34,109 nucleotides of DNA from a virus (IMGVR_UViG_2913167280_000005:1-34109); one strand, 5' to 3'; counted from the first letter of the stretch, positions 333 to 33,750 are shown. Made by a program: numbers and translations. The notes: a model not told the origin generated them from the sequence alone.

Positions 333-1136
333 ATGTGTCGGGTTCTGAAGGTCGCCCGTGCGGGATTTTACGTCTGGCTTCATCGCCCTGTTTCTGCCGG
401 AGAAAAGGATAATCAGCGGTTGCTGGAGCTCATCCGCGATGCTTATGCACTGAGCGGCGGAGTCTACGGTTATCGCAGGGTTCACGGCGATCTTCGTGAA
501 ATCGGTGAAGTATGCAGCAGAAACCGAGTTGCCAGAATCATGAAGCGGAACAGGATACAGGCCGTACATGGCTATAAGGTCCCGCGTGGCGTCAGGGGAA
601 GGCCGTCACTGATAGCTCCTAATCGCGTACAGCGGGAATTTACGGTGGTAAAACCCAACCAGGTGTGGGTAACTGATATTACCTACATCCGCACCTGGCA
701 GGGTTGGCTGTATCTGGCGGTGGTTATCGATCTTTTTGCCCGTAATGTGGTGGGCTGGTCGATGAAACCAACGCTGTCGCGCGAGCTGGCACTGGATGCG
801 CTGCTGATGGCAGTCTGGCGGCGTAAGCCTGCAGAAAACGTCATAGTGCACAGCGATCAGGGCAGTCAGTATGGCAGTGATGACTGGCAGCGGTTCTGCA
901 GGGCCAACAATCTGGCGCCGAGCATGAGCCGTCGTGGCAACTGCTGGGATAATGCGGTGGCAGAATCGTTCTTCAGTTCACTGAAAAAAGAGCGCATCAG
1001 AAAGCGGATATATAAAACCCGGGACATGGCCCGGGCGGATATCTTCGATTACATTGAAGTGTTCTACAACCGGACCCGACGCCACAGTCATCTGGGTGGC
1101 GTCAGCCCGGAGGCCTTCGAAAAGGCCTCACCGTGA
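333..1136 (+). CDS. IS3-family transposase OrfB (DDE catalytic domain), likely made as an OrfAB fusion by -1 frameshift near 247-252
   Basis: 267-aa ORF with rve-type integrase-core motifs (VWVTDITYI, LYLAVVIDLFARNVVGW, GNCWDNAVAESFF); the frame is open upstream to the slippery site. Confidence 0.85.
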   Translation: MCRVLKVARAGFYVWLHRPVSAGEKDNQRLLELIRDAYALSGGVYGYRRVHGDLREIGEVCSRNRVARIMKRNRIQAVHGYKVPRGVRGRPSLIAPNRVQREFTVVKPNQVWVTDITYIRTWQGWLYLAVVIDLFARNVVGWSMKPTLSRELALDALLMAVWRRKPAENVIVHSDQGSQYGSDDWQRFCRANNLAPSMSRRGNCWDNAVAESFFSSLKKERIRKRIYKTRDMARADIFDYIEVFYNRTRRHSHLGGVSPEAFEKASP

Positions 1137-25898: not shown

Positions 25899-26573
25899 CT
25901 ATGCGCCGTCGCTTCGAACCATGATGATGTGCCGCGCCAGCTTCTGCTGCCACTGGTATTGATTAAGCGACACCTCTTCGCATTTCCAGAAGTCGATGAA
26001 TGACGCCAACTCTGTTTTCCTGACACCTCGCTCAACCGGCGTACCCCATTCTTTCGACTGCTCTGCAAAGTCTGGATCTGGCCTCCAGTCTGAATGCATC
26101 AAAAAGTTATCCACAGAGTTTTTCGCGCGCGCGTTATGAGTGGGGTTTATATGGGGTTTATATTCTTCCTCTTCCTCTTCCTCTGGTAACGTTTTTTGTA
26201 ACGCTGGTTGCGTTACCTTTTGCGTTTCACGCTTTCTAAGTTCTGCCACCCTTCTGTTTGTAAGTGCTCGTTTTTTCGATGATTCTCCGTTATGCCGCTC
26301 AAAGTTAGGCAGGATGAGCTTTCCTTCCTGATAGGCAAGCCAGCCTACAGAGATCAGTGCGTCGGCGAATCCTGTAATAAAAGCGATCCTGTCGAACACT
26401 CCCTTTGTAACGCTGCCAGCGTTACCGTCTATCGTTTGTTGATCGGCCCATGCCCATATGCGAACCAACTTTCCAAGAACAGCATCCGGGTCAATATTCA
26501 ACAGTTCTGCTATCTGGAAAATCTCGGGCTTGTCAGGGGTGATTACTTCAACCTTAATCCAACTACTTGCCAT
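25899..26573 (-). CDS. replication protein (DnaT-like / replisome-organiser-type N-terminal domain, 224 aa)
   Basis: N-terminal region recalled as typical of prophage DnaT-like replication proteins; acidic EEEEEEE linker; position in the replication module. Confidence 0.55.
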   Translation of the reverse strand: MASSWIKVEVITPDKPEIFQIAELLNIDPDAVLGKLVRIWAWADQQTIDGNAGSVTKGVFDRIAFITGFADALISVGWLAYQEGKLILPNFERHNGESSKKRALTNRRVAELRKRETQKVTQPALQKTLPEEEEEEEYKPHINPTHNARAKNSVDNFLMHSDWRPDPDFAEQSKEWGTPVERGVRKTELASFIDFWKCEEVSLNQYQWQQKLARHIIMVRSDGA

Positions 26574-27624
26574 AGTTCACCCCCATATAAGCCCGGATGA
26601 ATTCAGCCTCAGCCTGTGCGTTTATGGCGTTACCGTAACCCTTAAGGCGGCCTGTTCGGTTGCGGCCTGCCAGTGCTCGTAATGAGGACTTTCCGTGTCC
26701 CAGGCTTTTGGCAAACCTTGCAACCAACGGGAATGTGCCGGATTCAACTGGACGCCATTGCCCATCTCGACAAAAGAGCCAGTCCGCATCTCGCCAAAAA
26801 CCGTTAACCTCAAGGGGCCCGCTGTGTATGCCTGTCTCGGCAACTGATCCAGTCGCTCCTTTCCATCCCGCTGCGCTGTCATGCCAGATGTGTCCTTCCA
26901 GTCGCGAGTCGTTGGCGTTACCCATCCGGCTAGTAGTGCTGTGCCCGGTAGTTTCAGGCAGACTTTCGGTGACCCGTCCTGATTTCTCCCGCTGTAGCAA
27001 TGAGTCGAACCGGTTGAATCGTTCGCCATTGGTGTTTGCCATCCCGTTAACCGCGCCGCTCCGGAGACATGTTGCAGGCCGCGCTTCGTTTCCGGCTGCG
27101 GGTTTGTGTTCGCCACTGGCGTGGGCCACCCAGTAGGCCCGCTCTCTGATGTGCGGCGCACCGACGCCCGCTGCCGCAAACGGCACAAGCCCGAAGGCGT
27201 ATCCCAATCCTTCCAGGTCAGCTTGTACAAGGTCGAACCATGGGTTTGCGTTACCAGCTGCAACCTGTTCGCCAAAGACATGCTGAGGTCCGCACTCGCT
27301 GATGAGGTGGAAGAAGGCTGGCCATAAGTGCCGCTCGTCATCAAACCCATCTCCTTTACCTGCCGCGCTGAAAGGCTGGCACGGGGGGGAGCCTGTCCAT
27401 ACTGGTTTATCGTCAGGCCATCCGGCGAGGCGGAGGGAGTGAGACCAGACACCGATCCCGGCAAAAAAGTGGTGCTGAGTGAATTCTCGCAGGTCGTCAG
27501 GTGTGACATCTTCAATGCTCCTTTCGTCAACTTCACCGGGCGCTATGTGTCCGCCGGCGATTAGGTTACGCAGCCACTGAGCTGCAAACGGGTCAATTTC
27601 GTTGTAGTACGCGGCTGGGATCAT
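26563..27624 (-). CDS. DNA cytosine-5 methyltransferase (Dcm-type)
   Basis: C5-MTase motifs FAGIGV (motif I) and PPCQPFSAAGK (motif IV, catalytic PCQ); ATG at 27624 overlaps the upstream stop (track ORF extends to 27696). Confidence 0.85.
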   Translation of the reverse strand: MIPAAYYNEIDPFAAQWLRNLIAGGHIAPGEVDERSIEDVTPDDLREFTQHHFFAGIGVWSHSLRLAGWPDDKPVWTGSPPCQPFSAAGKGDGFDDERHLWPAFFHLISECGPQHVFGEQVAAGNANPWFDLVQADLEGLGYAFGLVPFAAAGVGAPHIRERAYWVAHASGEHKPAAGNEARPATCLRSGAVNGMANTNGERFNRFDSLLQREKSGRVTESLPETTGHSTTSRMGNANDSRLEGHIWHDSAAGWKGATGSVAETGIHSGPLEVNGFWRDADWLFCRDGQWRPVESGTFPLVARFAKSLGHGKSSLRALAGRNRTGRLKGYGNAINAQAEAEFIRAYMGVNYGK

Positions 27625-27815
27625 GCTGCTTCTCCCGCTGCTTTCATCAGAGCTTTGATTTCTGCCTGCCGACGGCGGTTTGTTTCCATCGTGCATTCGA
27701 CGCAGTGTCCGTTATATGTCCAGCGTTCGCTTTGATGTCCGTGTTTGCAGACCTTGCCAGTGTAGTAGCGCTTCAACCCGCTTTTAGCGGCATCATTGCG
27801 CGTAATAATCTCCAT
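27621..27815 (-). CDS. small zinc-ribbon protein (64 aa) directly downstream of the Cro-like gene
   Basis: CKHGH...HCVEC motif; AGAGG upstream of the ATG. Confidence 0.55.
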   Translation of the reverse strand: MEIITRNDAAKSGLKRYYTGKVCKHGHQSERWTYNGHCVECTMETNRRRQAEIKALMKAAGEAA

Positions 27816-27893
27816 CTTCGTAACCTCTTTGGATTGCGGTTACGGTGATTTTCAATCAGGAGCAAAAAAAGATCAACCGTATACGGATATTTA

Positions 27894-27908
27894 TTACCTG
27901 AGAGGTGT
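27894..27908. promoter_or_regulatory. operator-like half-degenerate dyad TTACCTGAGAGGTGT (site D) in a module near-identical to the one at 29032-29069
   Basis: TCAACC..ATACGGATATTTATTACCT matches TCAACC...ATACGGATAATTATTACCT at 29032-29059 with one indel, but has no TTGACA -35. Confidence 0.3.
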
Positions 27909-27962
27909 TAATAGAAGTGATTAGGCCGCCTGACGGCGGCACTGAGGTGGTTCAGAGGGTGT

Positions 27963-28193
27963 TCAGGAGTAGAAGAATACGGCGAGCTCTGGTTTTGTTC
28001 TTACCCAGCCACGGGATTTGCATGCTTTAAAAAGCCCATTCATCAATGCCTTACCAGGCATTTTACGCTTCCCGGTCAAGTGCGTCTGGATGTAGTGAGC
28101 GGTGGTTTCTGCCTCATCTGCAAACGCTTTCCTTTCGTCAGGCGTGAGCTGGAGCCAGTGTTTTTTGAAATCGAATGGGATGTTGTCACTCAT
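27963..28193 (-). CDS. Cro-like early regulator (76 aa), assigned by position only
   Basis: Transcribed divergently from the repressor gene with operator dyads between them; no clear HTH recognised. Confidence 0.45.
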   Translation of the reverse strand: MSDNIPFDFKKHWLQLTPDERKAFADEAETTAHYIQTHLTGKRKMPGKALMNGLFKACKSRGWVRTKPELAVFFYS

Positions 28194-28260
28194 TTCTATT
28201 GCCTGATATTAATTTCAGATAACCAATATTCACCCATAAGGTAACAAAAAGCAAGGTTCG

Positions 28261-28292
28261 TTACCTGTACGGTGCATTTACCTGTGGGGTAA
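28261..28292. promoter_or_regulatory. rightward operator region: two dyads (TTACCTGTACGGTGC and TTACCTGTGGGGTAA) between the Cro-like and repressor genes
   Basis: Read directly; centres 17 bp apart in the 153-bp divergent intergenic region. Confidence 0.5.
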
Positions 28293-28346
28293 TATCGATT
28301 TTAATTGGCTCATAAATGATTCACTTACGAGACTAATCACCAGAGC

Positions 28347-28934
28347 ATGAAAAGTATCCACGATATTCGCCGCAAGAACCTCATCGATTTAATCGAACGC
28401 GATTTTAACGGTGTGCAAACGCGCCTGGCGGAGCGCCTGGATACTCAGCCTAATCTGGTAAACCGCTGGGCTCGTGGCACTAAAATCATCGGCGACCAGT
28501 CTGCACGTAAAATTGATATGGCAGCCAACAAGCCGACAAACTGGCTCGACACAGATCATGAACTTGTTTCTGTATCGGAATTCCAGCCGGTTGGCCCGAG
28601 TGATATCGGATTGCTGGCAGCTGAGAACCTGGCGCGCTGGATGCGTGAAAGTCGCGACCTGTCTACCCAGGGTAAGCTATCACGGGCATCAGGTGTGGCG
28701 CAGTCAACGCTGAACAGAATGCTCAACAATGAAGCCAGCATCACCCTTGCCACCCTGGAAGCCATCGCTGCCCCGTTCGGTCGCCGCGGTTATGAGTTGC
28801 TCATCCATCCGAAAGACCCCGCAGGAATCAGATACGACAGAACGAAGTACGCATCGTTACCTGAAAGCGAGAAAAGTAAGATTGAAAGTTTCATTGATTT
28901 TGTGATTACTCAGCACGCAAACAACCAGCTATAA
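28347..28934 (+). CDS. prophage repressor with two HTH (XRE-type) motifs, no S24 peptidase domain
   Basis: GVQTRLAERLDTQPNLVNRWARG and LSRASGVAQSTLNRMLNNE look like HTH segments; divergent from the Cro-like gene and followed by a strong terminator. Confidence 0.7.
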   Translation: MKSIHDIRRKNLIDLIERDFNGVQTRLAERLDTQPNLVNRWARGTKIIGDQSARKIDMAANKPTNWLDTDHELVSVSEFQPVGPSDIGLLAAENLARWMRESRDLSTQGKLSRASGVAQSTLNRMLNNEASITLATLEAIAAPFGRRGYELLIHPKDPAGIRYDRTKYASLPESEKSKIESFIDFVITQHANNQL

Positions 28935-28944
28935 CATACTGAAT

Positions 28945-28968
28945 TCTCAGACATAAGCCGCCATTGAG
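28945..28968 (+). terminator. intrinsic terminator (AAGCCGC-6 nt-GCGGCTT plus T tract) after the repressor gene
   Basis: Hairpin and TTTTTT read directly, 11 nt after the stop codon. Confidence 0.75.
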
Positions 28969-28991
28969 CGGCTTTTTTATCGCCCAAATCA

Positions 28992-29069
28992 TTACCCAAT
29001 GGGTAATTTTTTATCATCATATCTATTGACATCAACCCACATACGGATAATTATTACCTCAACGGTAAC
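28992..29069 (+). promoter_or_regulatory. leftward-operon promoter/operator: dyad ATTACCCAATGGGTAAT, -35 TTGACA (29026-29031), dyad ATTACCTCAACGGTAAC (29053-29069)
   Basis: Two dyads flank a consensus -35 hexamer; the second covers the -10/+1 region; the first ORF of the plus-strand operon follows at 29088. Confidence 0.5.
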
Positions 29070-29087
29070 AAGCCGAGGTAAAGAATC

Positions 29088-29237
29088 ATGCAGTGGAAGA
29101 TCATCAATGGTTGGTACTGCGTTACGGCGTGCGGGCTCATGAGCTGGAAGTTCCCGACGCTTGGTGAAGCAATCGAGTGGGCATTCGTCAGCAAGCTGGC
29201 GGTGAAAACAGAAATGGATATGGGGGTAACAAAGTGA
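29088..29237 (+). CDS. small hypothetical protein (49 aa), first ORF of the early-left operon; not in the ORF track
   Basis: ATG with GAGGTAAAG upstream; its stop overlaps a GTG start of the next gene (GTGA). Confidence 0.35.
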   Translation: MQWKIINGWYCVTACGLMSWKFPTLGEAIEWAFVSKLAVKTEMDMGVTK

Positions 29238-30193
29238 CTGATTTAGCAATTATCGAAATCGCACCAGATCTGGCACCAACTCTTTATGTTGAAAACGGAC
29301 TGGAATCCTTTCTTGAGCAAATCCGTGAAGCCGTAAAAGAAGTTCCTGACCTGAGCACAGCGAAAGGCCGGGCGCGCGTTGCTTCACTGGCTGCCCAGGT
29401 TTCACGCAGTAAAACTGCTGTCGAAAAGCCAGGTCGTGATTACCTGAAGCGCCTCAAGGAACAGCCGAAAGTGGTTGAGGCCGAGCTTCGCCGCTTCGTG
29501 ACTGAATGCGACAACCTTCGTGATGAAGTCCGTCGCCCTCTCACAGAATGGGAAGAAGAGCAGGAACGCATCAAAGCTGAGGAAGAGGCGAAGAAGAAGG
29601 CCGAAGAGTTGGCGGCAAAAGTCGAAGCCGACCACGAAATGGCACTGCTGATGAACGCCAATCACGACCGCGAAGTCGCTGAGAAAAAAGCAGAAGCAGA
29701 TCGCCAGCGCATTGCTCACGAAGAAGAGCTTAAGCGCCAGGCAACTGAGCAGGCAAAACGCGACGCAGAACGGAAGGCAGCGGCAGAACTGGCCGCAGCG
29801 CAAAAGCGAGAAGCTGATGCTATTGCTGCGAAGGCGCAGGCCGAGTTACTGGCGAAACAGGCAGCAGAACGTGCAGAGCAGGATCGCCTTAACGCAATCG
29901 CAAAAGCTGAAGCCGATGCGAAAGCGGCAGCGGAGAAAGCTGAAAAGGATAAGCAGGATGCGATCGAAGCAGAACGCATGAAGGCTAAACAGGCAGAAGA
30001 AGCACGCCTTGCAGAGCAGAAGCGAATCGCTGATGAAGAAGCGCGCCGCGCAGCTGACATTGAGCACCGTCGTGCAATCAATAGACAGGTAATTGCAGAT
30101 CTGGTTTCTGCCGGATTGCCAGAAGAGTTTGCCACCGAAGCTCTGAAAGCTATCGCCAGCGGAAAAGTCAGCAACACCATGATCAAGTACTGA
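29234..30193 (+). CDS. long coiled-coil protein (Ala/Glu/Lys/Arg-rich, about 319 aa)
   Basis: Highly charged heptad-like repeats (AEKAAAE, KAEADAKAAAEKAEKDKQ); start uncertain (GTG 29234 coupled to the small ORF, or the track GTG at 29177). Confidence 0.55.
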   Translation: MTDLAIIEIAPDLAPTLYVENGLESFLEQIREAVKEVPDLSTAKGRARVASLAAQVSRSKTAVEKPGRDYLKRLKEQPKVVEAELRRFVTECDNLRDEVRRPLTEWEEEQERIKAEEEAKKKAEELAAKVEADHEMALLMNANHDREVAEKKAEADRQRIAHEEELKRQATEQAKRDAERKAAAELAAAQKREADAIAAKAQAELLAKQAAERAEQDRLNAIAKAEADAKAAAEKAEKDKQDAIEAERMKAKQAEEARLAEQKRIADEEARRAADIEHRRAINRQVIADLVSAGLPEEFATEALKAIASGKVSNTMIKY

Positions 30194-30200
30194 GGTGACT

Positions 30201-30500
30201 ATGCACATTCAGCAATTCAACAACCTGAAAAAAATCGTCGCGTTGTTCGAGTCAGATTTTAAGTTGTCATCGCAGGTGTACGACCGCCACGTCGAACTGA
30301 TCGACGCGGTGAGCGGTATTGAAATGGACCCAGCATTCGAGCGCGCCCTGATTCGTACCGGTGTTCGTCCTGAAATTCTGGAAGCAGCGAAGGAGAGCGT
30401 CGAGTACGAAGATCTATTCGCCAGTTTCATCAGCGAACTGACCAGCGTCGTGGCGAAACTGGACGTGGCTGACCAGGTAGACAGTGCGAGGGCAGCATGA
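30201..30500 (+). CDS. hypothetical protein (about 99 aa)
   Basis: ATG at 30201 with GAGG upstream (track start is a GTG at 30195); stop overlaps the next start. Confidence 0.5.
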   Translation: MHIQQFNNLKKIVALFESDFKLSSQVYDRHVELIDAVSGIEMDPAFERALIRTGVRPEILEAAKESVEYEDLFASFISELTSVVAKLDVADQVDSARAA

Positions 30501-30730
30501 GTAATCAAGATATTTTGACTGTCCATCCAACTACTGAAGCGAACTGGACTAACGAGAACGTCAGAACCGAAGGATTGCTCATTCGCGACTACTTCGCAGC
30601 AAAGGCTATGCAAGGGATGCTGTCTAACCCTGGCATGTGGGACCTCATCAATGAAAAGAACGCACAGGTAGTGGCAATAGATGCATACCTGGTGGCCGAT
30701 GCAATGCTGAAAGCTCGGGAGGGTCAATGA
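30497..30730 (+). CDS. hypothetical protein (77 aa)
   Basis: ATGA overlaps on both sides within the recombination module. Confidence 0.5.
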   Translation: MSNQDILTVHPTTEANWTNENVRTEGLLIRDYFAAKAMQGMLSNPGMWDLINEKNAQVVAIDAYLVADAMLKAREGQ

Positions 30731-31548
30731 CACCTGGCATCTACTTCGACATCAGCAATGCTGACTACCACGCCGGGGACGGCGTGAGTAAGTCTCAGCT
30801 CGATATGGTCGCCAAAAACCCTTCGCTGCTCCAGTGGGTGAAAGCAGCGCCAGAGGACGAAGAGAAAAAATCCGCGCTGGACATGGGAACAGCGCTGCAC
30901 TGCCTGCTGCTTGAGCCTGGCGAGTTCGATAAACGTTTCATCGTAGCGCCAGAGTTCAACCGCCGTACCAATGACGGAAAGGCCGCTGAGAAATCATTCC
31001 TCGAAAGCGTCGCGGATCTAGGCATGACGGTGATGACTGCTGACGAAGGCCGCCGCCTGAAGTTGATGCGTGAAAGTGCCCTGGCTCACCCAGCGGCACG
31101 CTGGATGCTTGAAGCTCCAGGCCACTGCGAAGCGTCGATGTACTGGAACGGCGAGGCCACTGGCGAATTGTGTCGCATCCGCCCAGACAAGTGGCTGAAC
31201 GATCACAACGTGATCGTCGACGTGAAAAAGGTAGCCGACATGGAACGGTTCGCCAGACACATTGAAGAGTTCCGCTACCACGTTCAGGACGCGTTTTATA
31301 GAGAAGGTGCGCTGCGCACCACCGGGGAACCACACGGATTCTTCTTCCTGGCTGTCAGCGAAACAATCGACTGCGGTCGCTACCCGGTGCGCGTGTTCCA
31401 ACTCGACGAAGAAGACGTTAACACCGGGCACTCATTGTTCCGCCGGGATCTGAATACCTATCACGAATGCCGAGTTAATAACGACTGGGGCGGCGTGGAG
31501 ATAATTAAACGCCCTGCGTGGGCACGCAAACAGGATATGTACATATGA
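30727..31548 (+). CDS. PD-(D/E)xK exonuclease (RecE C-terminal-domain-like)
   Basis: N-terminal YFDISNADYHAGDGVSKSQL and a later IVDVKKV (D-x-K) block, recalled as typical of RecE-like phage exonucleases; immediately upstream of the annealase. Confidence 0.7.
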   Translation: MTPGIYFDISNADYHAGDGVSKSQLDMVAKNPSLLQWVKAAPEDEEKKSALDMGTALHCLLLEPGEFDKRFIVAPEFNRRTNDGKAAEKSFLESVADLGMTVMTADEGRRLKLMRESALAHPAARWMLEAPGHCEASMYWNGEATGELCRIRPDKWLNDHNVIVDVKKVADMERFARHIEEFRYHVQDAFYREGALRTTGEPHGFFFLAVSETIDCGRYPVRVFQLDEEDVNTGHSLFRRDLNTYHECRVNNDWGGVEIIKRPAWARKQDMYI

Positions 31549-32396
31549 GCAACGACATCGCAATCACCTCACAGCCTGGCGCTACTGTCGGAACCGCTGC
31601 CGCAATTTTCAGCCAGGAAGGTATGAATCAACTGGTGCGTTTCGCCGACTTGATGGCGCAAAGCAAAGCCACTGTTCCGGCGCACCTTGCCGGGAAGCCT
31701 GCCGATTGTTTGGCCGTTACCATGCAGGCTGCACAGTGGGGCATGAACCCGTTCGCCGTGGCGCAGAAAACGCATGTGGTAAATGGACAACTTGGTTACG
31801 AGGCTCAACTTGTTAACGCTGTTGTCCAGCAATCTGGCGCAATCAAAGGGAGATTTCACTACGAATACAAAGGCGAAGGAGCAGCACTTGAGTGTCGCGT
31901 AGGAGCAATAATTCGTGGTGAACAGGATATAACCTGGAATGAATGGCTGTGCATATCCAGCATAACAACAAAAAATTCTCCTCTATGGAAAACAAACCCA
32001 AAACAACAGATCGGATACCTTCAAGTAAAAAACTGGGCCAGAGCTCATACCCCTGGGGCAATTCTTGGTGTTTACACGCCTGATGAACTACAGGAAACAG
32101 CTCCACGCGCTGAGCGTGACATCACTCCACCAGCAGGCACTGCCGCAGGGATTAACAACCTGATTAACTCCAAACCTGAGCAGCAGGAAGAGCGCAGCAA
32201 GAATACCGACGAACGGGAACCCGATGAAATCCTGTCAGCGTTCACCGATGCAGCCATGACCTACAACACCGTTAAGGATCTGGACAAGGCCTACACGTAC
32301 GTTGCCAAAAAACTGGCAAACGACGATGAGCGCCTGGCGAAGGCCACCGACGTTTACACCATCCGTCGCGATGAGTTGAACGAAATCCCGGTTTAA
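31545..32396 (+). CDS. single-strand annealing protein (RecT/Bet family)
   Basis: QWGMNPF block resembles the lambda Bet QYGLNPW region; ATG at 31545 overlaps the exonuclease stop (track start is an upstream GTG at 31518). Confidence 0.7.
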   Translation: MSNDIAITSQPGATVGTAAAIFSQEGMNQLVRFADLMAQSKATVPAHLAGKPADCLAVTMQAAQWGMNPFAVAQKTHVVNGQLGYEAQLVNAVVQQSGAIKGRFHYEYKGEGAALECRVGAIIRGEQDITWNEWLCISSITTKNSPLWKTNPKQQIGYLQVKNWARAHTPGAILGVYTPDELQETAPRAERDITPPAGTAAGINNLINSKPEQQEERSKNTDEREPDEILSAFTDAAMTYNTVKDLDKAYTYVAKKLANDDERLAKATDVYTIRRDELNEIPV

Positions 32397-32449
32397 CGAT
32401 CACCACCGCGGCGCGAGAAGCGCCGCACATGCAACCAAGTGAGGAATTT

Positions 32450-32698
32450 ATGAAAGGTGCATTCGACAAAAAGAAATTGCTGGCGGTGGTGCCATTGTCA
32501 TGGAGCACAATCGATCGGCTTGAGCAGGCAGGTGAATTTCCTAAGCGCTGGTATATCACCGATAAGCGCTGCGCGTGGACTCAGGAAGAGGTAGAGAAGT
32601 GGCTGGATGAGCGCAAGGCAAATAGCCCTGATGAATTTCAAGGAAAGAAGCCCCCGGTTGAACTTCGAAAATATCGCCCGGTGAGTAGCGCCGCATGA
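32450..32698 (+). CDS. AlpA-like excisionase/transcriptional regulator (about 82 aa)
   Basis: LLAVVPLSWSTIDRLEQAGEFPKRWYITDKRCAWTQEEVEKWL fits the AlpA pattern; GAGG 5 nt upstream of the ATG at 32450 (track start at 32429). Confidence 0.65.
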   Translation: MKGAFDKKKLLAVVPLSWSTIDRLEQAGEFPKRWYITDKRCAWTQEEVEKWLDERKANSPDEFQGKKPPVELRKYRPVSSAA

Positions 32699-32811
32699 CT
32701 GCGCTCACGCGGCACTTCGATAAATGGTCAGGCTGGTATTGGTGCCTGGCCGCAATCAGCGCCTGGCTGTTCCTGCTGGCGCTAATCGCAAGAGAGGGCT
32801 GGATACGATGA
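32695..32811 (+). CDS. 38-aa single-TM hydrophobic peptide, overlapping both neighbouring genes; not in the ORF track
   Basis: Translated by hand as MTALTRHFDKWSGWYWCLAAISAWLFLLALIAREGWIR; start overlaps the AlpA-like stop (ATGA) and stop overlaps the next ATG. Confidence 0.35.
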   Translation: MTALTRHFDKWSGWYWCLAAISAWLFLLALIAREGWIR

Positions 32812-33113
32812 AAAGCATTTCAAGAGCGGAGCGTTATCGCAATGATTATGTGCCGCTTCGCCGCTGTGAGAAGGTTGTGGCGGTCACTGCTGAAGCAATG
32901 GAGATAGAGAGCCGCGCAGTAGAACGTGAAAAACGTGGGCAGTATCGCATTGCCGCCCGTCTTTGGCTGGAATGTATGGACGCGGCACAGGGTGAAGTTG
33001 AGCGCGCCCGTATCGCAGTACGTCGAACTCAATGCATTGCGCGGGGAAATGGCCTGCGCCGAGGCGAGTATTCTGGAATTAGTGCAGGTTGTAATGGGGT
33101 GGTTTATGACTAA
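32808..33113 (+). CDS. PerC-like small transcriptional regulator (about 101 aa)
   Basis: AEAMEIESRAVEREKRGQYRIAARLW resembles the conserved PerC-family core (recalled); ATG at 32808 with GAGAGGG upstream (track ORF starts at 32724). Confidence 0.45.
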   Translation: MKSISRAERYRNDYVPLRRCEKVVAVTAEAMEIESRAVEREKRGQYRIAARLWLECMDAAQGEVERARIAVRRTQCIARGNGLRRGEYSGISAGCNGVVYD

Positions 33114-33750
33114 GTACACGCTAATCTACGCAGATCCGCCTTGGGTTTACCGTGACAAAGCTGCCGACGGAAGCCGCGGGGCCGGGTTCAAATACCCGGT
33201 AATGAACGTCATGGATATATGCCGCCTGCCAGTATGGGATCTGGCCGCCGACGATTGCCTTCTGGCGATGTGGTGGGTGCCGACTCAACCGGTCGAAGCG
33301 CTGAAGGTTGTCGAGGCATGGGGATTCAGGCTGATGACCATGAAGGGCTTCACCTGGCACAAAACGAATAAGCACAAAGGCAACAGCGCGATAGGAATGG
33401 GCCACATGACCCGGGCGAACAGCGAAGACTGTCTGTTTGCCGTTCGAGGAAAACTACCGGCGCGCATGGATGCCTCGATATGCCAGCACATCACGGCACC
33501 GCGGATGGAGAACTCGCGCAAGCCGGATCTCATTCGCGAAAAACTGGTGCAGTTGCTTGGCGATGTACCAAGGATCGAGCTTTTCGCCCGCCAGTCGTCG
33601 CATGGCTTCGACGTATGGGGCAATCAGTGCGAAGGCCCGGCGGTGAAGTTGCAACCAGGATATGCGCTTGATATCGCTGGATTGACGCAGGCATTAAAAA
33701 ACACTCCGCTATCACCATCAGATAAGCAGGGCCAGGAGCGTGCAGCATGA
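33106..33750 (+). CDS. MT-A70-family DNA N6-adenine methyltransferase
   Basis: IYADPPW catalytic motif near the N-terminus; ATG at 33106 (an alternative ATG at 33094 is in frame; track start at 32926). Confidence 0.85.
   Translation: MTKYTLIYADPPWVYRDKAADGSRGAGFKYPVMNVMDICRLPVWDLAADDCLLAMWWVPTQPVEALKVVEAWGFRLMTMKGFTWHKTNKHKGNSAIGMGHMTRANSEDCLFAVRGKLPARMDASICQHITAPRMENSRKPDLIREKLVQLLGDVPRIELFARQSSHGFDVWGNQCEGPAVKLQPGYALDIAGLTQALKNTPLSPSDKQGQERAA

What the first reader, a model, noticed from the sequence alone, without database searches (positions are those of the whole stretch)
26563..33750. Two orphan DNA methyltransferases of different chemistry, with no cognate restriction gene seen
A Dcm-type C5-cytosine methyltransferase (26563-27624) sits in the replication module and an MT-A70 N6-adenine methyltransferase (33106-33750) in the early-left operon. 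Neither has an adjacent restriction endonuclease; the HNH and PD-(D/E)xK genes are several genes away in different contexts. This is consistent with anti-restriction self-protection or epigenetic modification of the host.
Basis: partly seen in the sequence, partly recalled or inferred. Interest (0 to 1): 0.4.

Follow-up and report, generated by a model that had tools for sequence, protein, structure and literature searches.

The report
Methylase gene hiding a second gene
The two phage DNA methylase genes are real and have no restriction partner, which is ordinary. The cytosine methylase gene also holds a second conserved gene in another reading frame, which appears to supply the enzyme's missing DNA-recognition part.

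Summary
Both methyltransferase genes exist at the stated coordinates in an epsilon15-like prophage. They are a C5-cytosine MTase (26563-27624, minus strand) and an MT-A70 adenine MTase (33106-33750, plus strand). No restriction nuclease lies nearby, so that part of the finding is correct but ordinary.

- B is under purifying selection. In the middle of the gene, substitutions fall on B's third codon positions.
- B has its own AAGGAG + ATG start, conserved across phyla.
- B occurs in 80 of 80 viral contigs chosen by frame A alone, in 219 phage records, and in thousands of protein clusters. None has a Pfam or NCBIfam family.
- Frame A carries the catalytic motifs plus a GNAI (motif X) signature. 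About 160 residues between them are predicted disordered.
- B carries W-x-T-P repeats and a motif IX-like block. It is homologous (hhalign E 9e-7) to the second subunit of split actinophage C5 MTases.

Best reading: a two-polypeptide (alpha/beta) C5 methyltransferase with beta overprinted inside alpha. The only described precedent I found is M.EcoHK31I. Expression of B and the need for both subunits are inferred, not shown.

The parts
26563..27624 (-). Frame A (alpha): the annotated C5-cytosine MTase, 353 aa. It holds the motif I-VIII catalytic domain (aa 1-171), an unconstrained linker, a conserved C-terminal block and a GNAI motif X helix.
   Evidence: Pfam PF00145 E 4.5e-14 over aa 100-205. 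hhalign against M.HhaI aligns A 42-176 with HhaI 6-179 at E 9e-12. AF2 gives pLDDT 81-96 for 1-171, about 30-46 for 172-331, and 76-93 for 332-353. Foldseek's top hits are M.HhaI and other C5 MTases, aligned over only about 165-195 columns.
26622..27509 (-). Frame B (beta): an embedded +1 frame gene of 295 aa counted from the ATG. The stop-free stretch reaches 27536.
   Evidence: ORF listing. The ORF is conserved in epsilon15, 65FD, Klebsiella, Xanthomonas, Vibrio and Rhodobacter phages. The search found 5747 clusters at 90% identity and 9651 representatives at 50% identity. It matches phrog_1008 at E 3e-29 but has no Pfam, NCBIfam or PADLOC family.
27507..27523 (-). Translation start of B: Shine-Dalgarno AAGGAG (27523-27518), an 8-nt spacer, then ATG (27509-27507). 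It is built from frame A codons E-R(AGG)-S-I-E-D-V.
   Evidence: Sequence read. 70 of 75 loci have a B-frame ATG with a Shine-Dalgarno motif, and 55 have it at this exact position. The Arg codon is AGG in 40 of 75 loci, against 8.4% of all Arg codons in A genes.
27339..27356 (-). Possible second, internal start of B: AAGGAG (27356-27351) followed by in-frame ATG 27350, TTG 27344 and ATG 27341. It lies where amino-acid constraint on B begins.
   Evidence: Sequence read. TTG or ATG with AAGGA at +121/+124 from motif I is present in about half of the loci. Constraint onset is shown. Whether this start is used is not known.
27115..27375 (-). Dual-coded segment 1. Frame A encodes motifs IV (after PCQ) to VIII. 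Frame B encodes its conserved N-terminal block (ASLSARQ...GSTLYKLTWK...RASVRRTS).
   Evidence: In 71 loci, diversity at A's third positions drops from 0.46-0.61 upstream to 0.17-0.40 here. Few substitutions fall in any position in pairwise comparisons.
26809..27114 (-). Segment where only frame B is constrained. Frame A is merely kept open as a linker. It contains the three W-x-T-P units GWPTP 27117-27131, GWQTP 27030-27044 and GWVTP 26913-26927.
   Evidence: Against 65FD, 13-19 substitutions per 40 codons fall on A1 (= B3), versus 3 or fewer on each other position. The insertion in epsilon15 adds a GWPTP unit in B and low-complexity sequence in A. AF2 predicts disorder for this stretch of A.
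26700..26796 (-). Dual-coded segment 2. Frame A encodes WRDADWLFCRDGQWRPVESGTFPL. Frame B encodes LRLTVFGEM...QLNPAHSRWLQGLPKAW, with the motif IX-like block at 26700-26750.
   Evidence: All three codon positions have low diversity (0.09-0.33) in 69-71 loci. B's block aligns with motif IX of actinophage beta subunits and, weakly, with M.HhaI 273-292.
26623..26634 (-). GNAI, the motif X signature, in frame A. B's stop codon (26624-26622) overlaps it. Downstream, only frame A is coding.
   Evidence: G331, N332 and A333 are invariant in 72 sequences. The helix has pLDDT 76-93. A3 diversity returns to 0.46-0.61 after it. The alignment to actinophage motif X is not significant (E 0.12).
27376..27384 (-). 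PCQ, motif IV with the catalytic cysteine, in frame A.
   Evidence: Invariant P81, C82 and Q83. It aligns with the PCQ of M.HhaI.
33106..33750 (+). MT-A70 family N6-adenine MTase of 214 aa, with DPPW at 33133-33144.
   Evidence: PF05063 E 2.6e-25. phrog_359 E 5e-114. PADLOC MTase_II E 8e-75. Homologues are annotated as adenine methylase in Uetakevirus phages.
27621..27815 (-). 64-aa zinc-ribbon protein. Its stop overlaps the start of A (ATGA). It is too small to be a nuclease.
   Evidence: ORF listing. phrog_1081 E 3e-36, with only weak matches to the zinc-finger parts of endonuclease VII and HNH families. No PADLOC hit.

Best explanation
The window is an epsilon15-like prophage with two solitary DNA methyltransferases. 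The adenine enzyme is an ordinary MT-A70 protein.

The cytosine enzyme is most likely made of two polypeptides read from the same DNA on the same strand.
- Alpha (frame A) supplies the AdoMet-binding and catalytic domain (motifs I-VIII). After a long unstructured linker, it also supplies the motif X helix.
- Beta (frame B, +1) starts at its own ribosome-binding site just upstream of motif I. It supplies the target-recognition region (W-x-T-P repeats) and motif IX.
- The two would assemble into an active C5 methyltransferase, as in M.EcoHK31I.

Shown here:
- Both frames are open and conserved.
- Frame-specific purifying selection switches along the gene, with two stretches under double constraint.
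- The Shine-Dalgarno + ATG start of B is conserved.
- Alpha lacks a folded recognition domain.
- Beta is homologous to the second subunit of split phage C5 MTases.

Inferred: beta is translated, alpha and beta bind each other, both are needed for methylation, and the enzyme serves anti-restriction or epigenetic roles.
For: 1. Frame-specific selection. Against 65FD (88% identity), substitutions fall on A's third positions in aa 1-100. In aa 160-280 they fall on A1 = B3 (13-19 versus 3 or fewer). In aa 80-160 there are few in any position.
2. The same pattern holds in 71 loci from many phyla. B's constraint starts at motif IV, and all three positions are constrained over the C-terminal block.
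3. The +1 ORF is longer than in any of 1000 synonymous-codon permutations of the window gene (306 versus mean 124, max 304). The median over 77 loci is 317 versus 150, while the +2 frame median is 56.
4. The arrangement is universal. 80 of 80 viral contigs picked by frame A motifs alone have a +1 ORF of 200 codons or more, and 77 of 80 carry the motif IX-like block. All 75 genome loci carrying B have the enclosing A frame with PCQ and GNA. It is present in 219 phage records, including N15 and epsilon15.
5. Own start. AAGGAG + 8 nt + ATG is conserved in 55 of 75 loci at the same position, and 70 of 75 have an ATG with a Shine-Dalgarno motif. The rare AGG codon is enriched more than 6-fold where it forms that motif.
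6. Alpha is incomplete. Pfam, TIGR00675 and PADLOC models match only its first half. AF2 predicts residues 172-331 as disordered. Foldseek aligns only the large domain.
7. Beta's identity. hhalign of the B profile against actinophage second subunits (Hammer gp90, BabyBack gp82, Scottish gp69) gives probability 91% and E 8.9e-7 over B 124-287. The aligned region includes LPTP-x-A-x-D repeats and motif IX.
8. Precedents. M.EcoHK31I has beta in another frame inside alpha and needs both chains. M.AquI is also a two-chain enzyme (PMC2836561; PMC3404938).
Against: - There are no expression data of any kind for B.
- AF2 of B alone is poor (pLDDT 62, pTM 0.28). Its model and profile match nothing in the PDB.
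- The alignment of B to motif IX of M.HhaI is correct in position but not significant (E 0.35).
- The motif X assignment in A rests on the GNAI signature and a confident helix, not on a significant alignment.
- The first 50 or so residues of B are not constrained at the amino-acid level, so the true N-terminus is uncertain.
- A has a conserved C-terminal block (NGFWRDADWLFCRDGKWRPVEPGTFPL) of unknown role. It might let alpha work alone.
- In M.EcoHK31I the recognition domain is said to be in alpha, so the analogy is partial.
- I could not compare sequences with M.EcoHK31I.
Confidence: 0.65

Rival explanations
1. B is a real protein that acts separately from the methyltransferase. It could be a DNA-binding regulator, an inhibitor or timer of alpha, or an anti-restriction factor. 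Alpha would be active on its own, with relaxed specificity.
For: B has its own start. AF2 finds a few folded elements in B alone. A keeps a conserved C-terminal block that might act as a minimal recognition element. Phage orphan MTases with degenerate specificity are known (PMC12707154).
Against: B is homologous to the recognition and motif IX subunit of split C5 MTases. B is never found without A, and A is never found without B. Alpha lacks any folded small domain.
Confidence: 0.15
2. One polypeptide is made by programmed frameshifting. The ribosome shifts +1 from A into B after motif VIII, and perhaps -1 back into A before motif X, recreating a canonical single-chain enzyme.
For: The order of elements is A (I-VIII), then B (recognition region and IX), then A (X). 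This is the canonical motif order. The frames differ by exactly +1 and then -1.
Against: - B is constrained from motif IV onward, which is upstream of A's motifs VI and VIII. Both frames must therefore be read over the same 90 codons.
- The conserved Shine-Dalgarno + ATG lies far upstream.
- No canonical -1 slippery heptamer sits between motif IX and motif X in any of 72 loci.
- In most family members, B's motif IX block directly overlaps A's motif X, leaving no room for a switch.
- Not scanned: +1 shift-prone sites and transcriptional slippage.
Confidence: 0.07
3. One reading: two ordinary single-chain orphan MTases. The +1 ORF would be an untranslated by-product of composition or codon usage.
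For: Permuting synonymous codons already gives +1 ORFs of about 124-150 codons, so A's amino-acid make-up favours open +1 frames. Most annotation records list only frame A.
Against: - Substitutions fall on B's third positions in the middle of the gene.
- The B protein sequence is conserved from enterobacteria to Xanthomonas, Desulfovibrio, Planctomycetota and a candidate-phylum genome.
- Indels add whole W-x-T-P units in B.
- The rare-codon Shine-Dalgarno motif is conserved.
- The observed ORF exceeds all 1000 permutations for the window gene.
Confidence: 0.03

Closest known systems
M.EcoHK31I (E. coli HK31, YGGCCR), an alpha/beta C5 methyltransferase
   Same: Beta is encoded entirely within the alpha gene in another reading frame. 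[quoted passage not shown] The N-terminal roughly 42 residues of beta are dispensable, as B's unconstrained N-terminus here might be. Internal starts are used (PMC2836561; PMC3404938).
   Different: In M.EcoHK31I the recognition domain is assigned to alpha and beta is only 176 aa. Here the recognition-domain-like repeats are in beta, which is 295 aa and overlaps nearly all of alpha, including motifs IV-VIII. M.EcoHK31I belongs to a restriction-modification system, whereas this one is solitary and phage-borne.
Split C5 MTases of actinophages (Hammer gp91/gp90, BabyBack gp83/gp82, Scottish gp68/gp69) and M.AquI
   Same: They have two polypeptides. The first carries motifs I-VIII. The second carries LPTP-x-A-x-D repeats and motif IX, and is homologous to B (E 8.9e-7).
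   Different: Their genes are adjacent, with an 8-68 nt overlap or a gap, rather than nested. Their second subunit also carries motif X (GNGV). Here motif X stays on alpha.
epsilon15 gp41, N15 gp58, BcepC6B g33 and K1H ORF29/ORF28 ('Mte8-like protein')
   Same: They belong to the same family and have the same two-frame layout. In K1H and fTaEco03 both ORFs are annotated.
   Different: These are annotation labels only. I found no paper that explains the second ORF.
Multispecific C5 MTases of Bacillus phages (SPR, phi3T)
   Same: Tandem recognition modules sit behind one catalytic domain and protect against several restriction systems (PMC12707154). Here the number of W-x-T-P units varies from 1 to 6.
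   Different: Those enzymes are single chains. Whether each W-x-T-P unit is a separate recognition module is unknown.
Phage orphan MTases in general (Dam-like, MT-A70)
   Same: The MT-A70 gene is a plain member: DPPW motif, no nuclease partner, early operon.
   Different: Nothing unusual was seen.

Membership tests
C5-cytosine DNA methyltransferase (PF00145), frame A | Motif IV PCQ with the catalytic Cys, motif VI glutamate, motif VIII R-x-R and motif I F-x-G-x-G | tested here: met
   PCQ 81-83, E119, R160/R162 and FAGIG 53-58 are invariant in 72 sequences. They align with M.HhaI motifs I-VIII at E 9e-12. Pfam scores 53 bits against a cut-off of 22.
C5-cytosine DNA methyltransferase (PF00145), frame A | Target-recognition domain and motif IX on the same polypeptide, between motifs VIII and X | tested here: not met
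   Pfam, TIGR00675 and PADLOC profiles stop at about aa 170-205. AF2 predicts residues 172-331 as disordered. That stretch is not under selection in frame A.
C5-cytosine DNA methyltransferase (PF00145), frame A | Motif X (G-N-x-V/I helix packing on the catalytic domain) | tested here: inconclusive
   GNAI is invariant and the helix is confident. The hhalign match to actinophage motif X has only E 0.12.
Two-polypeptide C5 MTase with beta nested in another frame of alpha (M.EcoHK31I type) | The beta ORF lies wholly inside the alpha gene, on the same strand, in a different frame | tested here: met
   B at 26622-27509 lies inside A at 26563-27624, in the +1 frame.
Two-polypeptide C5 MTase with beta nested in another frame of alpha (M.EcoHK31I type) | Beta carries motif IX; alpha carries motifs I-VIII and X | tested here: met
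   B's QLNPAHSRWLQGLPKAW aligns with motif IX of actinophage beta subunits, within a match of E 8.9e-7. Evidence for alpha is given above. Motif X is assigned by signature only.
Two-polypeptide C5 MTase with beta nested in another frame of alpha (M.EcoHK31I type) | The recognition domain resides in alpha | tested here: not met
   The recognition-domain-like W-x-T-P repeats are in B. Alpha has only an unconstrained linker there.
Two-polypeptide C5 MTase with beta nested in another frame of alpha (M.EcoHK31I type) | Both chains are required for methylation, and they associate physically | not testable with these tools
   This needs genetics and biochemistry.
Two-polypeptide C5 MTase with beta nested in another frame of alpha (M.EcoHK31I type) | Sequence homology to M.EcoHK31I alpha and beta | not tested
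Split C5 MTase with adjacent genes (M.AquI and actinophage type) | The second subunit carries the recognition region, motif IX and motif X, and is encoded downstream of the first | tested here: not met
   B is homologous to that subunit. However, it lacks motif X and is nested in A, not downstream of it.
MT-A70 N6-adenine methyltransferase | PF05063 domain above its threshold and the DPPW catalytic motif | tested here: met
   89.8 bits against a cut-off of 23.9, covering the full profile 1-172. DPPW is at aa 10-13.
Orphan (solitary) methyltransferase | No cognate restriction endonuclease gene next to the MTase | tested here: met
   No neighbour shows a nuclease family in Pfam or PADLOC apart from the recombination exonuclease and a weak HNH match. 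The relative 65FD has a small ORF and then the integrase after the adenine MTase. Caveat: the window ends 360 nt after the MT-A70 gene.

The most novel reading that the evidence does not exclude
This would be a very large, so far undescribed superfamily of obligate alpha/beta C5 methyltransferases. The whole recognition subunit, about 890 nt, is overprinted in the +1 frame of the catalytic subunit's gene, and roughly 120 codons are under double purifying selection. That would make it one of the longest and most widely conserved same-strand overlapping gene pairs in phages and bacteria. The layout would also act as an evolvability device. W-x-T-P recognition modules can be gained or lost in beta because alpha reads the same DNA only as a disordered linker. 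The result would be enzymes of variable or multiple specificity for escaping restriction.
Probability: 0.3. Interest if true: 0.8.

Novelty: new variant of a known kind. Interest (0 to 1): 0.62.

Why it matters
As stated, the finding adds nothing new: temperate phages often carry solitary methylases. The embedded gene matters for three reasons.

1. It would turn a single-enzyme curiosity, M.EcoHK31I, into a common design. The design is present in epsilon15, N15 and hundreds of other phages and prophages across many bacterial phyla.

2. It gives a clean, testable case of long same-strand dual coding with two ancient functional constraints on the same nucleotides. Such cases are rare and disputed in prokaryotes.

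3. It has practical consequences. Pfam and NCBIfam have no model for beta. Most records annotate only alpha. PGAP even splits intact alpha genes into "pseudogene" pieces. Anyone who clones or mutates "the methylase", assigns methylome motifs to it, or recodes it would unknowingly alter a second protein.

Tried and rejected
- Pfam (also at E up to 5 on 64 members), NCBIfam and PADLOC gave nothing for B.
- A PDB profile search with the B alignment found no match at E up to 10.
- AF2 of B alone gave a low-confidence model, and its Foldseek search gave only noise.
- hhalign of B against M.HhaI alone put the best alignment at motif IX, but it was not significant.
I therefore could not model a chimeric or paired alpha+beta chain.
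- Protein comparison on the A alignment failed. I replaced it with a local hhalign run.
- I looked for single-chain relatives with the B region in frame with the catalytic domain. Every phage hit to B that I inspected was dual-frame: Vibrio, Rhodobacter, and a truncated remnant in the 'Dunaliella viridis virus SI2' record. The long database hits that looked like fusions carry no PF00145 domain; a few begin with an A-frame stretch that runs on into frame B, which I take for frameshifted or deleted copies.
- A frameshift site search found no -1 slippery heptamer.
- Literature searches on EcoHK31I, Mte8, overlapping methyltransferase genes, epsilon15 methylase and two-polypeptide C5 MTases found no description of this family.
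- The original M.EcoHK31I and epsilon15 genome papers are not held.
- I considered the HNH, DUF1064 and DUF3799 genes as hidden restriction partners. I rejected this because of their recombination and replication context and the absence of a PADLOC nuclease hit.

Full report
**What the window is.** DNA and protein matches place it among epsilon15-like (Uetakevirus) phages. The structural genes agree: major capsid GP7, portal and small terminase. A frame A protein 100% identical to the window's is annotated in Escherichia sp. E2593. The region 24-34 kb holds two divergent early operons around a repressor gene at 28347-28934.

**Check of the observation.** The C5 gene is on the minus strand.
It equals the start of epsilon15 gp41 and of NCBI's 353-aa protein. 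It has a GGAG upstream and overlaps the stop of the preceding 64-aa gene as ATGA.
- Pfam PF00145 is above threshold but covers only aa 100-205.
- The MT-A70 gene (33106-33750) matches PF05063 over the whole profile and has DPPW.
- No neighbouring ORF looks like a restriction enzyme. The DUF3799 PD-(D/E)xK protein lies next to RecT. The HNH match is below threshold. DUF1064 is a resolvase-like protein. PADLOC reports only methyltransferase models.
- In 65FD the adenine methylase is followed by a small ORF and then the integrase.

On its own it is ordinary: epsilon15-type phages are already annotated with a cytosine and an adenine methylase, and solitary phage methylases are well reviewed (PMC12707154).

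**The unexpected part.** The ORF list shows a 304-codon ORF on the same strand, in the +1 frame, wholly inside the C5 gene (26622..27536). I call the annotated frame A and this one B. B is also open in epsilon15 (338 codons), 65FD, two Klebsiella phages and Xanthomonas phage phiXaf18, which shares only 59% DNA identity. It is also open in Vibrio and Rhodobacter phages.

**Is B more than chance?** Four tests say yes.
1. *Codon-position bookkeeping.* Between the window and 65FD, substitutions in A codons 1-100 fall on A's third position (12-14 per 40 codons, versus 0-3 elsewhere). In codons 160-280 they fall on A's first position, which is B's third (13-19 versus 3 or fewer). In codons 80-160 and about 280-320 there are few substitutions of any kind.
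2. *Many loci.* Across 71 loci from many phyla, A's third-position diversity is 0.46-0.61 up to motif IV. It then falls to 0.17-0.40. Over A's WRDADWLFCRDGQWRPVESGTFPL block all three positions are constrained. After GNAI, A3 diversity returns to about 0.6.
3. *Codon permutation.* Permuting synonymous codons of A while keeping its protein gives a longest +1 ORF of 124 codons on average and 304 at most, against 306 observed (0 of 1000). Over 77 loci the median observed length is 317 against 150, while the +2 frame reaches only 56.
4. *Indels.* Insertions and deletions in the middle add or remove GWPTP units in B, while A reads low-complexity sequence.

**How widespread is it?**
- B has 5747 homologous 90%-identity clusters and 9651 50%-identity representatives. 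None has a Pfam domain, and almost all are unnamed.
- In a species-representative genome set, 507 stretches encode a relative. They range from Enterobacteriaceae, Burkholderiales, Pseudomonas and Brucella to Desulfovibrio, Lentisphaerae, Planctomycetota and a candidate-phylum genome.
- In all 75 loci where B was recognised, the enclosing frame has PCQ and GNA.
- To remove the selection bias, I fetched 80 viral contigs by frame A motifs only. All 80 have a +1 ORF of at least 200 codons, and 77 carry the motif IX-like block. The three exceptions have match lengths that are not multiples of three, so they look frameshifted; I did not inspect them further.
- B lies under the annotated cytosine methylase in 219 phage records, including N15 gp58.
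- A few annotators list both ORFs: K1H ORF29/ORF28, and fTaEco03 'Mte8-like protein'. PHROGs has a family for B, phrog_1008.
- I found no paper that interprets B.

**How is B made?**
- Just upstream of motif I the window reads GAA AGG AGC ATT GAA GAT G in frame A. That is AAGGAG, an 8-nt spacer and ATG in frame B (27523-27507).
- 70 of 75 loci have a B-frame ATG with a Shine-Dalgarno motif, and 55 have it at this exact position. The Arg codon that forms the motif is the rare AGG in 53% of loci, against 8.4% of Arg codons elsewhere in these genes.
- This points to independent initiation.
- B's first 50 or so residues are not constrained as protein. A second AAGGAG with ATG, TTG and ATG lies exactly where constraint begins (27356-27339). 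A shorter isoform is therefore possible.
- Frameshifting is unlikely. B is constrained upstream of A's motifs VI and VIII, so both frames must be read there. No -1 slippery heptamer exists between motif IX and motif X in any of 72 loci.

**What the two products are.**
- Frame A aligns with M.HhaI motifs I to VIII at E 9e-12.
- AF2 gives a confident catalytic domain (1-171), about 160 residues of pLDDT 30-46, and a confident terminal helix carrying GNAI.
- Foldseek finds C5 methyltransferases, but only over about 165-195 columns. Alpha thus has no folded small domain.
- Frame B has a conserved N-terminal block, one to six W-x-T-P-x-A-x-D units, and a terminal block QLNPAHSRWLMGLPxxWD.
- Searching phages with M.HhaI revealed that many mycobacteriophages have split C5 methylases. 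The first gene has motifs I-VIII. The second gene, in another frame or after a gap, has LPTP-x-A-R-D-W-K-G repeats, motif IX (RFSEWMMGWxxGW) and motif X (GNGV).
- The B profile matches these second subunits with probability 91% and E 8.9e-7 over B 124-287, motif IX included (single-sequence version E 3e-5).
- Against M.HhaI alone, the only alignment also falls on motif IX (residues 273-292) but is not significant.

**Mechanism proposed.** This is a two-chain C5 methyltransferase.
- Alpha binds AdoMet and carries out catalysis.
- Beta provides DNA recognition and motif IX.
- Motif X stays on alpha, tethered by a linker whose sequence is free to vary because it is dictated by beta's coding needs.

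The described precedents are M.EcoHK31I and M.AquI. In M.EcoHK31I, beta lies in another frame inside alpha, alpha has motifs I-VIII and X, beta has motif IX, both are needed, and beta's N-terminus is dispensable (PMC2836561; PMC3404938).

Three things differ here. Beta holds the entire recognition region. The overlap runs through the catalytic motifs. The enzyme is solitary and phage-borne.

The steps not shown are translation of B, assembly of the two chains, and the requirement for both. The role of A's conserved NGFWRDADW...FPL block is unexplained. It may be the interface with beta.

**Verdict.**
- The interesting object is the nested alpha/beta gene pair.
- I rate it a new variant of a known kind.
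- My confidence that B is a real coding gene is about 0.9.
- My confidence in the alpha/beta enzyme model is about 0.65.

Noticed in passing
L094 793-1962 (E. coli ECCTRSRTH03 chromosome); the same 'x2' annotation appears in several other RefSeq E. coli genomes: PGAP annotates the homologous C5 gene as two 'incomplete' pseudogene fragments. Yet frame A (400 aa) and frame B (334 aa) are both intact. The unconstrained middle of A seems to break similarity-based annotation.
   Followed up: yes
window 27450-27624 (A residues 1-58): In frame A, a YYNEIDP-AA-WL...D-x-RSI-x-DV stretch resembles C5 motifs II-III, but it lies before FFAGIG (motif I) rather than after it. hhalign aligns FFAGIG to M.HhaI motif I with a 27-residue gap, and weakly aligns A 5-73 to HhaI 36-97. 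This may be a local permutation of the N-terminal motifs.
   Followed up: partly
L093 1444-2443; L095 1144-2377; L096 745-2227 (mycobacteriophages Hammer, BabyBack, Scottish): Split C5 methyltransferases are encoded as two genes, with a 68-nt overlap, an 8-nt overlap or a 73-nt gap. The M.HhaI search listed two 'DNA methylase' features under the match in many Mycobacterium phage records.
   Followed up: partly
L090 1410-1826 (record named Dunaliella viridis virus SI2, a Caudoviricetes genome): This is a deletion remnant of the same gene pair. Frame A is 138 aa, with the N-terminus joined directly to the C-terminal block and GNAI. Frame B is 104 aa with one WPTP unit and motif IX. Both frames are still open.
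   Followed up: no
protein P0244 (499 aa, B homologue): A B-family member carries an insertion of about 170 aa rich in Cys pairs (CKRC...CKAC) and an HNH/endonuclease VII-like tail (DNVRVVLYSLNVMAN). No Pfam hit was found.
   Followed up: no
window 333-1136 (+): A transposase with an integrase-core (rve) domain plus HTH_21, of the kind carried by insertion sequences, sits at the left end of the window next to the tail genes. It is probably an insertion sequence in or beside the prophage.
   Followed up: no
L003 2123-3741; L004 1916-3660; L094 793-2615: In Klebsiella phages and E. coli prophages, the same C5 alpha/beta gene lies directly downstream of an MT-A70 gene in one operon. In the window the two methylases sit in opposite early operons.
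   Followed up: partly
window 32724-33113 (+): A PerC-family transcriptional activator homologue (PF06069, E 4e-6) lies immediately upstream of the MT-A70 gene and overlaps it by 8 nt.
   Followed up: no
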